IMG/VR virus record: IMGVR_UViG_2529292905_000024
Strand: one strand, 5' to 3'
DNA length: 16,347 nucleotides
Source of the DNA: a virus
Lineage: Duplodnaviria > Heunggongvirae > Uroviricota > Caudoviricetes
The notes beneath the pieces are model-generated. The model worked only from the letters and a program-made list of their open reading frames with translations. It was not told where the DNA came from and did not search any database. A program made the position numbers and the translations under genes. The stretch's first letter is position 1; each line of letters opens with the position of its first letter. Below, piece after piece: positions 7,455 to 9,313 of this stretch.

Positions 7455-7478
7455 CAAAAAACCCGCCGAAGCGGGTAT
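7455..7478 (-). terminator. Intrinsic terminator ending the two-gene moron
   Basis: Minus-strand hairpin acccgc-uucg-gcgggu followed by U6, starting 3 nt after the stop of the 7481-8584 gene; core is a 20-nt exact copy of the 9293-9313 terminator. Confidence 0.65.
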
Positions 7479-7480
7479 AC

Positions 7481-8584
7481 TCAAACAATCTGGAAAATAT
7501 TTCTTGGATTTGTAATAGGTCTGTTGATGGAGAACAACTCACGAATTAAATCTTGGCTCAAGCCAGTTTTCATAAGAATTCTTAGCCAGGTTGCATCATC
7601 CAGCATTTCAATCGCCTCGGCCAGCATGCCGGGTTCTTCAGGGCGCAAAAGTTCATCACCAGGTTCAACTCTCGTATACCCTCTGGAATTAAGATGCATA
7701 TAGCCAGTTCTTGCCTGTTCCTGGGTCAATAAGCCTAATGCGCTGGCTCGATAAATACACATTTTAAGGCTGATTTTCCATCTAAGTTTAAATTCAACCA
7801 GAGCATTCCAGTCGAATTGCTTACCTCGTATTCGTGGAAATTCTTTAATGAAAGATAACCTGGGAACTAATAAGGCGCTCGAAAAGTGATCGGCTTGTGA
7901 TTCCGTAAGTTTATCACCTGTCGTTATGCCCTCATGCATTACTAAATGCCCTAATTCATGACCTAAATCAGAGCGAAATCTACATATGCTTTTTTTAACA
8001 TTGTTCCTGATGATAACAGGCCTGTTATTGTGAACAGTAAAAGCATCAACACGATCATCGACTCCCGTAACATGCGCAACGATTACCCCTAAACTCTCCG
8101 CCAATTTAACCATTGATGATATAGGGCCAAGACCTAAATTCCAGGCACGGCGACAATCTTCTGCCACTCGCTCAATATCATTCGGAGTAAGTAATTCAGC
8201 CCCTGGGTGCTCCGGTATGTTAACGTCAGGAAATTCGATTTCACCTTCAACAGCAGAAATTATAATATTAAGAATCTCAGCCCTGGCCAATACACTATTA
8301 GTCAGCGTTTGAGTCCTGGACTTCTTACTCCGAAAATGGCAGACATCACTTTCCAGAGCGTATTTTCGTTCAGTAAAAAGAAAACTGGACTTAATCATAA
8401 GCGCTGAAGATATTAACTCAAGACATTGCTCCGATGGCCTGCACCCCTTCTCCAGTTTGCTAACAAATTGCTTTGTCTTGCCAATTTTTTCGGCTAACTC
8501 TTCACAAGAAAGCCCAACAGCCATTCTCGCTAGTTTGAGCTTATCACCCCGATACTCAGTGAAGTTATTCACCTGATGTTCCAT
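7481..8584 (-). CDS. Fused XRE-family HTH / ImmA-IrrE-family (Peptidase_M78, COG2856) zinc metallopeptidase
   Basis: 367 aa from the ATG at 8584; N-terminal HTH (LKLARMAVGLSCEELAEKIGKTKQFVSKLEKG) and a central HEXXH zinc motif (SDLGHELGHLVMHEG). Overlaps the upstream gene by 20 nt. Confidence 0.8.
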   Translation of the reverse strand: MEHQVNNFTEYRGDKLKLARMAVGLSCEELAEKIGKTKQFVSKLEKGCRPSEQCLELISSALMIKSSFLFTERKYALESDVCHFRSKKSRTQTLTNSVLARAEILNIIISAVEGEIEFPDVNIPEHPGAELLTPNDIERVAEDCRRAWNLGLGPISSMVKLAESLGVIVAHVTGVDDRVDAFTVHNNRPVIIRNNVKKSICRFRSDLGHELGHLVMHEGITTGDKLTESQADHFSSALLVPRLSFIKEFPRIRGKQFDWNALVEFKLRWKISLKMCIYRASALGLLTQEQARTGYMHLNSRGYTRVEPGDELLRPEEPGMLAEAIEMLDDATWLRILMKTGLSQDLIRELFSINRPITNPRNIFQIV

Positions 8585-9215
8585 CACTGCTCACATCCAA
8601 ATCTTTATCCTTCGTACGCCGACGAAGAGGCACCTTATTAATCTCCGCTTCGTCAGGGAGTGTGTTATAATCAAGAGGCATAAGCGGCATCGATGCTGTA
8701 GATTGATGAGAAACTATACTAATCTGAGCACCATAAGTATTAAATCCAACAAGAGCTACCTCCCAACGAGGCAGTGTGGACTCTAATTCACCATCGCCCT
8801 CTTCGGATAAAAAAGGCTCAGCTATGACTCGCCATGTAATATCTTGCTCAGCCTCAACATCACCAAACAATGAGAGCTGCTCATACTCTACTTTATTTCG
8901 ACGCAGACGATGTTTCTTTTTGGGGTTATTAATGCAATCTTTGGTAAATTGTAGCGGAACTTTATTTAAAGCAACTACATAGTCCAACCCCTTGGAAATC
9001 ATCTCAAGGCCAGGAATTGCATCTTCATTTTGAATAAGATGATTTCTGACCCAATCATAAGCCCTTACACCTTCAGACCAGTTGCTGTCTAATGCGTGCT
9101 TATGATAGTACAGCTGCTCAAGTACGTTAGCGATCTCCGCCAACAAGTGGCGAACATAGTTTTCAGCAAGATAAGGTTGAAATTCCCAACAAGGAGCTAA
9201 CTGATTTTCATTCAT
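8565..9215 (-). CDS. Hypothetical protein (216 aa), first gene of the moron operon; candidate effector/toxin partner of the XRE-M78 protein
   Basis: ORF with ATG at 9215, acidic C-terminus, no motif I recognise; co-oriented and overlapping with the XRE-M78 gene, between a promoter-like element and a terminator. Confidence 0.55.
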   Translation of the reverse strand: MNENQLAPCWEFQPYLAENYVRHLLAEIANVLEQLYYHKHALDSNWSEGVRAYDWVRNHLIQNEDAIPGLEMISKGLDYVVALNKVPLQFTKDCINNPKKKHRLRRNKVEYEQLSLFGDVEAEQDITWRVIAEPFLSEEGDGELESTLPRWEVALVGFNTYGAQISIVSHQSTASMPLMPLDYNTLPDEAEINKVPLRRRTKDKDLDVSSDGTSGE

Positions 9216-9250
9216 TTCAAGTTTCGCTTTTTTTAGAATTCGTAAACCAC

Positions 9251-9279
9251 ATATTTTCGCATTTTTCTATTTTTGTCAA
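9251..9279 (-). promoter_or_regulatory. Candidate sigma70 promoter of the moron operon
   Basis: Minus-strand perfect -35 TTGACA (plus 9274-9279) and a weak -10 (GAAAAT/AAATAT at 16-17 bp), between the upstream terminator and the ATG at 9215. Confidence 0.3.
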
Positions 9280-9292
9280 CCAGACTAATGCA

Positions 9293-9313
9293 AAAACCCG
9301 CCGAAGCGGGTTA
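9293..9313 (-). terminator. Intrinsic terminator of the hok transcript, immediately upstream of the moron
   Basis: Minus-strand hairpin acccgc-uucg-gcgggu plus U5; 20-nt core identical to 7459-7478. Confidence 0.65.

What the first reader, a model, noticed from the sequence alone, without database searches (positions are those of the whole stretch)
7455..9313. Terminator-bounded two-gene moron: unrecognised 216-aa protein plus fused XRE-HTH/ImmA-IrrE (M78) metallopeptidase
Seen in sequence: a compact operon (8565-9215 then 7481-8584, overlapping by 20 nt) sits between two intrinsic terminators sharing a 20-nt core and has its own promoter-like element with a perfect TTGACA -35, the classic moron layout. 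The second protein has an XRE HTH and a HELGH zinc motif; the first has no motif I recognise. Established knowledge: ImmA/IrrE-type peptidases switch systems on by cleaving HTH repressors (ImmA/ImmR of ICEBs1, IrrE/DdrO, CapP/CapH of CBASS), and Xre-COG2856 fusions have been predicted as antitoxin or regulator components next to diverse toxins. Inference: the 216-aa protein is a candidate toxin or abortive-infection effector held in check by a damage- or infection-sensing HTH-peptidase. This is my lead candidate for an undescribed system.
Basis: partly seen in the sequence, partly recalled or inferred. Interest (0 to 1): 0.8.

Follow-up and report, generated by a model that had tools for sequence, protein, structure and literature searches.

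The report
Rosmer toxin-antitoxin defence cassette in prophage
The two genes are a Rosmer (RmrT/RmrA) toxin-antitoxin anti-phage module, a system type described in 2022, inserted as a self-contained cassette into an E. coli prophage; the one new lead is that its uncharacterised toxin carries a conserved motif for binding the DNA-replication sliding clamp.

Summary
The claim that the system is undescribed does not hold. PADLOC defence models identify the 216-aa protein as RmrT (E 4.6e-25) and the 367-aa protein as RmrA (E 6e-105). RmrA is 29% identical (E 2e-35) to the experimentally verified RmrA of E. coli OLC-716 (RosmerTA, Millman 2022).

The cassette is a 1,835-bp insertion at the hokD terminator of a Qin-like lambdoid prophage. 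It is present in 237 of 5,426 complete E. coli genomes, while 2,791 carry the empty site. The gene pair stays together in nine intact loci from different genera and mobile elements, including relatives only 17-25% identical. The only natural disruptions seen with the partner left intact hit rmrT, never rmrA alone.

The parts
9290..9312 (-). Intrinsic terminator of the hokD (hok/sok) transcript. It contains copy 1 of the 20-nt direct repeat (9311-9292) and marks the upstream junction of the insertion.
   Evidence: The empty-site alignment shows that sequence to the left of this hairpin is hokD flank.
9216..9282 (-). Cassette promoter and leader: -35 TTGACA at 9279-9274, a weak -10, two GCGAAA repeats and the imperfect palindrome TTTACGAATTCTAAA. 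This is a candidate operator for the RmrA HTH.
   Evidence: sequence. (conserved in E. coli, Enterobacter, Serratia and Xenorhabdus). (leader more conserved than the coding sequence). The operator role is inferred.
8565..9215 (-). rmrT: 216-aa predicted toxin of RmrT family PDLC03929.
   Evidence: PADLOC RmrT E 4.6e-25. All 57 aligned relatives hit the same model. phrog_5786. No Pfam or NCBIfam hit. AF2 pLDDT 85.8.
8865..8879 (-). Codons for QLSLF (aa 113-117), an exact match to the beta sliding-clamp-binding consensus QL[SD]LF. It is the best-conserved linear motif of the family.
   Evidence: Consensus taken from PMC9690074 and PMC12867686. Binding itself is not tested.
7481..8584 (-). rmrA: 367-aa predicted antitoxin/regulator, an XRE HTH fused to an M78 (ImmA/IrrE) zinc peptidase. 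Its start overlaps the end of rmrT by 20 nt.
   Evidence: Pfam. PADLOC RmrA E 6e-105. 29% identity and E 2e-35 to the verified RmrA. phrog_2439.
8399..8548 (-). XRE-type helix-turn-helix (aa 13-62) of RmrA.
   Evidence: PDB sequence hits to SinR and the 434 repressor.
7946..7960 (-). HELGH zinc-binding motif (aa 209-213) of the M78 domain. The likely third ligand, E228, aligns with the verified RmrA.
7451..7476 (-). The cassette's own intrinsic terminator. It contains copy 2 of the 20-nt repeat (7476-7457) and marks the downstream junction.
   Evidence: Related ACCCGC-loop-GCGGGT hairpins follow rmrA in Enterobacter and Salmonella.

Best explanation
The locus is a Rosmer-type (RmrT/RmrA) two-gene toxin-antitoxin anti-phage module. 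It is carried as an autonomous 1.8-kb moron inserted at the hokD terminator of a Qin-like lambdoid prophage.

Shown here:
- Both proteins match the Rosmer models.
- The pair is a conserved unit with its own conserved promoter/leader and terminator.
- The cassette is present or absent as a block.

Inferred:
- rmrT and rmrA are co-transcribed and translationally coupled through the 20-nt overlap.
- RmrA represses the operon through its HTH at the conserved leader.
- RmrA neutralises RmrT post-translationally through its M78 peptidase, possibly handing the toxin to ClpXP. Related Rosmer systems make clpP or clpX essential, which suggests this.
- When infection disables or outruns RmrA, RmrT is freed.

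Proposed toxin action, at about 0.5 on its own: RmrT binds the hydrophobic pocket of the beta sliding clamp (DnaN) through its conserved QLSLF motif. This would arrest clamp-dependent replication of the host and of phages that use host Pol III, as reported for the pneumococcal Rosmer toxin RipA and for SocB.
For: Family assignment:
- PADLOC RmrT 4.6e-25 and RmrA 6e-105.
- RmrA versus the verified OLC-716 RmrA: 29% identity over 301 aa, E 2e-35, with HExxH and the downstream Glu conserved.
- Published definition of Rosmer, and delta-rmrA could not be transformed.

Conserved unit:
- An HTH+M78 gene follows the rmrT homologue in Xenorhabdus, Serratia, Enterobacter and a Salmonella satellite.
- The same holds in four distant metagenomic relatives.
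- In E. coli both genes occur in the same 237 genomes.

Direction of toxicity: frameshifted or IS5-disrupted rmrT occurs with an intact rmrA. No case of the reverse was seen.

Moron status: empty site in 2,791 genomes against 237 occupied; low GC; conserved leader.

Clamp motif:
- QLSLF at aa 113-117.
- 70 of 94 distant members keep Q[LM]x[LMF]F-type motifs at the homologous site, against 4.6 in shuffles. Match density is 14.5 per 1000 aa inside the segment against 0.5 outside.
- RipA targets the DnaN pocket, and ClpX/ClpP dependence is reported in related systems.
- Clamp-binding motifs make the Mu protein MuC lethal when overexpressed.
Against: - No experiment exists for this RmrT family in the searchable literature.
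- The window RmrT has no detectable similarity to the verified RmrT, so toxicity and defence are extrapolated from the family.
- Rosmer toxins are heterogeneous: the phage Kita RmrT depolarises membranes.
- In the deep AF2 model the motif sits at the end of a helix (aa 108-115) with pLDDT 78-91. Its conservation could therefore be structural or catalytic rather than reflect a free clamp-binding peptide.
- In the related system PD-lambda-2, the Xre-peptidase itself was the toxic component.
- The -10 element is weak, and the promoter was not called by the consensus scan.
Confidence: 0.8

Rival explanations
1. The module is a Rosmer-type pair, but RmrT is not a clamp binder. The E-x-x-Q-L-S-L-F segment is a core helix of a divergent restriction-endonuclease-like (PD-(D/E)XK-like) domain or another enzyme domain, and toxicity comes from nuclease or other enzymatic activity.
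Confidence: 0.35
2. The pair is only an addiction (post-segregational) module that stabilises the prophage or cassette, with no role in phage defence.
For: It has classic type II TA-like architecture. It sits next to another addiction-type locus, hok/sok. Related Rosmer pairs behave as chromosomal TA systems with physiological roles, such as RipAB and competence.
Against: A homologous RmrA system was verified as anti-phage, and so was the phage Kita system. The cassette occupies variable moron or defence positions in prophages and a P4-like satellite and lies near a SIR2 gene.
Confidence: 0.12
3. RmrA is an ImmA-like anti-repressor protease of the prophage. It would cleave the short DicA-like HTH repressor (13512-13919) to trigger induction, and the 216-aa protein would be an accessory factor.
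For: ImmA/IrrE proteases cleave HTH repressors (established knowledge). The prophage repressor is a 135-aa HTH protein, too short to hold the self-cleaving domain of lambda CI (my own knowledge).
Against: Most hokD-bearing sites lack the cassette: 2,791 genomes carry an empty site and only 237 an occupied one. The pair travels as a unit into unrelated elements and non-phage islands. RmrA carries its own fused HTH. Its best matches are RmrA models, not a stand-alone ImmA.
Confidence: 0.04
4. The roles are reversed: the Xre-peptidase is the toxic effector and the 216-aa protein is its antidote, as reported for PD-lambda-2B and PD-lambda-2A.
For: In PD-lambda-2, overexpression of the Xre-peptidase alone was toxic and was rescued by the upstream gene.
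Against: Natural variants with disrupted rmrT retain an intact rmrA. In 237 E. coli genomes rmrA is always at least 80% covered, while rmrT is the gene that is occasionally truncated. Delta-rmrA could not be obtained for the verified Rosmer system.
Confidence: 0.05

Closest known systems
RosmerTA of E. coli OLC-716 (Millman et al. 2022; verified anti-phage system)
   Same: Same gene order and overlap. RmrA has the same HTH + M78 architecture and length (367 vs 370 aa), with 29% identity and E 2e-35. The toxin has no known domain.
   Different: The toxin is unrelated in sequence (BLAST E 7; hhalign probability 0.3%). It belongs to a different catalogued RmrT family, PDLC03929. This family has not been tested experimentally, as far as I could find.
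RipAB (Spr1630/Spr1629) of Streptococcus pneumoniae, a Rosmer-family TA
   Same: The antitoxin is an XRE + ImmA-like fusion. The window RmrA hits the NCBIfam spr1629 family model at 1.5e-45, below the curated cut-off. The RipA toxin targets the DnaN hydrophobic pocket, the site that a QLSLF motif would bind.
   Different: I found no sequence link between the toxins. The RipAB paper mentions no motif. RipAB is chromosomal and linked to competence. Its ClpX dependence has not been tested for the window's system.
SocAB type VI TA of Caulobacter
   Same: The toxin blocks replication by binding the clamp through a clamp-binding motif. Related Rosmer systems also show dependence on ClpXP.
   Different: SocA is a ClpXP adaptor, not an HTH-peptidase (my own knowledge). 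I did not test homology here.
ImmA/ImmR of ICEBs1, IrrE/DdrO, CapP/CapH
   Same: M78 zinc peptidase with HExxH, functionally linked to an XRE HTH. PADLOC capP hit at 1.6e-14.
   Different: Here the HTH and peptidase are fused in one protein. There is no separate repressor substrate and no CBASS operon adjacent. The partner is a toxin-like protein.
PD-lambda-2 (Vassallo et al. 2022)
   Same: [quoted passage not shown]
   Different: PD-lambda-2 has three genes, including a HigB-like protein and a P4 antitoxin-like protein, and its peptidase is the toxic part. The window has only two genes and no HigB domain.
RmrTA of Gordonia phage Kita (Ernits et al. 2023)
   Same: Phage-borne Rosmer pair with defence activity.
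   Different: The Kita toxin is membrane-localised and depolarises the membrane. By my reading of its sequence, the window RmrT is a soluble alpha/beta protein with no transmembrane segment; I ran no transmembrane prediction (model).

Membership tests
Rosmer (RmrTA) defence system | RmrA: XRE HTH fused to an M78/ImmA-IrrE zinc peptidase with HExxH | tested here: met
   Pfam HTH_3 5e-7 and Peptidase_M78 6.5e-11. HELGH at aa 209-213. PADLOC RmrA PDLC03943 at 6e-105, plus 13 further RmrA models.
Rosmer (RmrTA) defence system | RmrA is homologous to an experimentally verified RmrA | tested here: met
   29% identity over 301 aa, E 2e-35, against E. coli OLC-716 RmrA (sequence taken from Millman Table S2).
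Rosmer (RmrTA) defence system | An adjacent, co-oriented small toxin gene (RmrT) in the same operon | tested here: met
   20-nt overlap. PADLOC RmrT PDLC03929 at 4.6e-25. The pairing is conserved in nine intact loci.
Rosmer (RmrTA) defence system | RmrT is toxic and RmrA neutralises it | not testable with these tools
   Indirect evidence only. Natural disruptions that leave the partner intact hit rmrT, never rmrA alone.
Rosmer (RmrTA) defence system | Protection against phage infection | not testable with these tools
   The context is suggestive: prophage moron sites, a P4-like satellite and an adjacent SIR2 gene.
Beta-clamp-binding proteins | Presence of the QL[SD]LF (or QLxLxL) clamp-binding motif | tested here: met
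   QLSLF at aa 113-117. It is the only such match in all six reading frames of the window. 70 of 94 distant relatives keep a motif at the site, against 4.6 expected.
Beta-clamp-binding proteins | Physical binding to the DnaN hydrophobic pocket | not testable with these tools
   No complex prediction or experiment was available.
PD-(D/E)XK restriction-endonuclease-like nucleases | alpha-beta-beta-beta-alpha-beta core fold | tested here: inconclusive
PD-(D/E)XK restriction-endonuclease-like nucleases | Conserved D...(D/E)xK catalytic residues on strands 2 and 3 | tested here: not met
   Positions 78, 89 and 92 vary across the 57-member alignment.
ImmA/ImmR-type anti-repressor pair | A separate HTH repressor gene next to the protease, serving as its substrate | tested here: not met
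   The HTH is fused to the peptidase, and no separate repressor lies in the cassette.
CapP/CapH regulators of CBASS | Adjacency to a CBASS (CD-NTase and effector) operon | tested here: not met
   The annotated neighbours are hokD, SIR2, DUF968, RusA and Q. The capP model scores far below the RmrA models.
Phage moron | Autonomous unit with its own promoter and terminator, inserted between phage genes and absent from related phages | tested here: met

The most novel reading that the evidence does not exclude
RmrT family PDLC03929 is a previously unrecognised class of beta sliding-clamp-binding toxins. Its conserved Q-[LM]-[SDTN]-[LM]-F motif would dock into the DnaN pocket. The unrelated verified OLC-716 RmrT family also carries QLKLDL or NLDLF at an aligned site, so several sequence-unrelated Rosmer toxins may converge on the replisome clamp. 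RmrA and ClpXP would then act together as the antidote. This would give Rosmer a common mechanism, which none of the Rosmer papers I read provides.
Probability: 0.4. Interest if true: 0.6.

Novelty: already known. Interest (0 to 1): 0.3.

Why it matters
As a system, this adds nothing new. A standard defence-finder run would label it Rosmer, and it is common, occurring in about 4% of complete E. coli genomes, including O55:H7, ABU 83972 and 042.

Its value is practical. It removes a false "undescribed system" lead. It also documents a clean example of a defence cassette inserted at a terminator with a 20-nt junction repeat.

One specific, cheaply testable hypothesis comes out of it, for a toxin family with no known function: clamp binding through QLSLF. 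If that is right, it would link this family to RipA and SocB, and would help explain why related Rosmer systems make ClpX or ClpP essential.

Tried and rejected
- **Pfam and NCBIfam on RmrT and its 57 relatives:** no hits.
- **BLAST and hhalign against the verified OLC-716 RmrT:** no relationship.
- **PDB sequence search with the family profile:** nothing meaningful.
- **Foldseek against PDB:** no hit below E 0.1. The afdb50 library was unavailable.
- **Megablast of the cassette against the phage collection:** no match, although PHROG families exist for both proteins.
- **Whether Millman's tables list this exact genome:** the files are truncated, so there was no answer.
- **Whether the E. coli E101 toxin-antitoxin pair that makes clpP essential (Rousset 2020) is this family:** I could not retrieve its sequence. 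Its T46S suppressor fits the OLC-716 RmrT, which has T46, and not the window RmrT, which has W46. It is therefore probably the other family; this is an inference.
- **Accession searches in the literature:** nothing found.
- **Canonical PD-(D/E)XK active site in RmrT:** considered and rejected, because the catalytic positions are not conserved.
- **CapP/CapH and ImmA/ImmR membership:** considered and rejected on gene context.
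Full report
**1. Observation**

- Two minus-strand ORFs, 9215-8565 (216 aa) and 8584-7481 (367 aa), overlap by 20 nt. RefSeq annotates the same two genes.
- Minus-strand hairpins with T-runs lie at 9312-9295 and 7476-7461. They fold at -15.1 and -10.9 kcal/mol.
- The hairpins share an exact 20-nt repeat, ACCCGCTTCGGCGGGTTTTT, at 9311-9292 and 7476-7457, found nowhere else in the window.
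- TTGACA sits at 9279-9274. The -10 is weak, and the consensus scan did not call this promoter.
- The second protein has HTH_3 and Peptidase_M78 domains with HELGH at aa 209-213. The first has no Pfam or NCBIfam match.

**2. Where it sits**

The window is 100% identical to a lambdoid, Qin-like prophage of E. coli O55:H7 CB9615 and many other strains. On the minus strand the order is:
- replication genes
- a SIR2 gene
- sok/hokD
- the cassette
- hypothetical genes
- DUF968
- RusA
- Q
- a CPBP protease
- tRNAs
- lysis genes

I built an artificial empty site from hokD, one terminator copy and the downstream sequence. It aligns in a single piece in other E. coli genomes, and 2,791 of 5,426 genomes have a place covering at least 80% of it. 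The occupied form is in 237 genomes.

A three-way alignment shows that the sequence left of the hairpin matches the upstream junction and the sequence right of it matches the downstream junction. The cassette is therefore a 1,835-bp insertion bounded by the duplicated terminator core.

Its GC content is 0.38-0.44, against 0.52-0.58 in the flanks. In Enterobacter and in a Salmonella satellite, rmrA is followed by a related ACCCGC-loop-GCGGGT hairpin with a different loop. The downstream terminator therefore belongs to the cassette and the upstream one to hokD. The 20-nt identity is most simply a recombination junction; this is an inference.

**3. What it is**

PADLOC models identify the 216-aa protein as RmrT (PDLC03929, E 4.6e-25, nearly full length). 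They identify the 367-aa protein as RmrA (PDLC03943, E 6e-105, plus 13 further RmrA models).

RosmerTA was defined by Millman et al. as a Zn-peptidase antitoxin with a toxin of unknown function. The verified example comes from E. coli OLC-716, and delta-rmrA could not be transformed. Compared with that pair:
- The window RmrA is 29% identical over 301 aa (E 2e-35), with HExxH and the downstream Glu aligned.
- The window RmrT is unrelated to the verified RmrT.

This is expected, because Rosmer pairs one antitoxin type with diverse toxins (Ernits et al. 2023).

An exhaustive profile search found 69 family representatives. All 57 aligned members hit the same PADLOC RmrT model (best 3e-72), and none hits Pfam. 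So the toxin family is already catalogued, but I found no experiment on it.

**4. Is the pair a unit?**

Yes. An HTH+M78 gene of 359-377 aa directly follows the rmrT homologue in:
- Xenorhabdus, Serratia and Enterobacter prophages
- a Salmonella P4-like satellite
- four metagenomic relatives only 17-25% identical, which lie in non-phage islands next to integrase, resolvase, HigB or RES genes

In Serratia the pair sits between Q and the holin gene, a different moron site. In complete E. coli genomes, rmrT and rmrA each match in the same 237 genomes.

The 67-nt leader from TTGACA to the ATG is more conserved than the coding regions: 0.85 against 0.65-0.68 for Serratia, and 0.91 against 0.79-0.84 for Enterobacter and Salmonella. 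This fits a promoter/operator under selection, presumably for the RmrA HTH; that role is inferred.

**5. Which gene is the toxin?**

Only indirect evidence is available.
- A Salmonella copy has a frameshifted rmrT with an intact rmrA.
- E. coli FDAARGOS_1249 has IS5 in the 5' part of rmrT with an intact rmrA.
- In two loci both genes are degraded.
- In the 237 E. coli genomes, rmrA is always at least 80% covered, while rmrT is the gene that is occasionally truncated.

I saw no intact rmrT with a broken rmrA. This fits RmrT as toxin and RmrA as antidote, as in the verified system. It argues against the reversed roles reported for PD-lambda-2.

**6. What the toxin might do**

A 57-sequence alignment gave a confident AF2 model (pLDDT 85.8, pTM 0.75). 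It has two long helices followed by a six-stranded sheet with a helix inserted after strand 3.
- Foldseek finds nothing.
- The canonical PD-(D/E)XK residues are not conserved.

I treat the nuclease-like fold as unproven.

The most conserved linear element of the family is E110-x-x-Q113-L-S-L-F117. In the window protein it reads QLSLF. This is an exact match to the bacterial clamp-binding consensus QL[SD]LF (PMC9690074 and PMC12867686). It is also the only such match in all six reading frames of the window. By my composition-based estimate, the chance of one in a protein this size is about 5e-4.

Of 94 full-length distant relatives, 70 carry a pentamer or hexamer of this type at the homologous site, for example QMDLF, QMDMF, QLTLF, QMSLF and QLSLPL. 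Shuffled sequences give 4.6. Match density is 14.5 per 1000 aa inside the segment and 0.5 outside it. A variable-length, acidic, gap-rich linker follows the motif.

The unrelated verified RmrT family has QLKLDL, QLNLDL or NLDLF at one aligned site.

Independently, the pneumococcal Rosmer toxin RipA was shown genetically to act through the DnaN hydrophobic pocket. The paper does not mention a motif. SocB blocks replication through a clamp-binding motif. Clamp-binding motifs also make overexpressed MuC lethal.

I therefore propose that this RmrT is a clamp-binding toxin, at about 0.5. The main caveat is that the deep model places residues 108-115 in a helix of fair confidence, so the conservation could be structural or catalytic.

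**7. How neutralisation may work (inferred)**

- The 20-nt overlap suggests translational coupling.
- The HTH and the conserved leader suggest autorepression.
- The intact HExxH suggests proteolysis.
- In related Rosmer systems clpP (E. coli E101) or clpX (pneumococcus) becomes essential because of the toxin, and RipB overexpression makes ClpX dispensable.

The simplest model is that RmrA inactivates or marks RmrT, and ClpXP helps clear it. Infection would then disturb this balance. The trigger is unknown.

**8. Verdict**

The system is not undescribed, however: it is a Rosmer module that existing defence-system models recognise. Novelty is low. What remains of interest is the uncharacterised toxin family and the clamp-binding motif lead, which I did not find in the literature I could search.

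Noticed in passing
window 9908-10939 (-): A 343-aa ORF, annotated in RefSeq as a SIR2 family protein, lies just upstream of hok/sok. It has weak PADLOC hits (Aga_SIR2 3.9e-6, PDC-S21 8e-6, SIR2 6e-5) and very low GC (0.35-0.43). It may be a second, stand-alone defence gene in the same variable region. Other strains carry QueH or Paa adhesin genes at this position instead.
   Followed up: partly
window 9381-9705 (-): A hok/sok type I toxin-antitoxin locus: hokD at 9381-9536 and an Rfam sok match at 9534-9705. Its terminator is the insertion point of the Rosmer cassette.
   Followed up: partly
alignment A7 (verified OLC-716 RmrT family), aa ~143-148 of the 239-aa protein: The experimentally verified but sequence-unrelated RmrT family also carries clamp-binding-like motifs at one aligned site. 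Enterobacterales members have QLKLDL, QLNLDL or QLDFGF. Vibrio and Photobacterium members have NLDLF after a 12-aa deletion.
   Followed up: partly
L004-L007 (Serratia) and L009 (Salmonella Sanjuan): The same rmrT-rmrA cassette occupies different mobile-element sites. In Serratia prophages it lies between the Q antiterminator and the holin gene. In Salmonella it sits in a P4-like satellite with AlpA, a DUF927 primase and an integrase.
   Followed up: partly
window 14343-15556 (-): An IS3-family insertion sequence: two overlapping transposase ORFs with an Rfam ALIL frameshifting pseudoknot at 15159-15275. It lies inside the prophage early-left region.
   Followed up: no
window 2074-2590 (-) and 16224-16310 (-): Three prophage tRNA genes (Arg, Arg and Ile in the RefSeq annotation) at 2344-2590, followed by an STnc100 sRNA match at 2074-2264. 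A further tRNA match lies at 16224-16310 near the window end.
   Followed up: no
window 3953-4660 (-): A CPBP-family (Abi-like) intramembrane glutamic endopeptidase gene lies between the Q antiterminator and the tRNA cluster. It had no PADLOC hit.
   Followed up: no
window 13512-13919 (+): The prophage repressor is a short (135-aa) DicA-like XRE HTH protein, too short to hold a self-cleaving domain like that of lambda CI (my own knowledge). Its HTH region matches the HTH part of several RmrA models and capH. I considered it as a possible RmrA substrate and judged this unlikely.
   Followed up: partly
plasmids CP088590.1 and NZ_AP026904.1: The cassette is also present, at 99.9% identity, on two large non-mobilizable E. 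coli plasmids. These may be phage-plasmids or carry integrated prophage segments.
   Followed up: no
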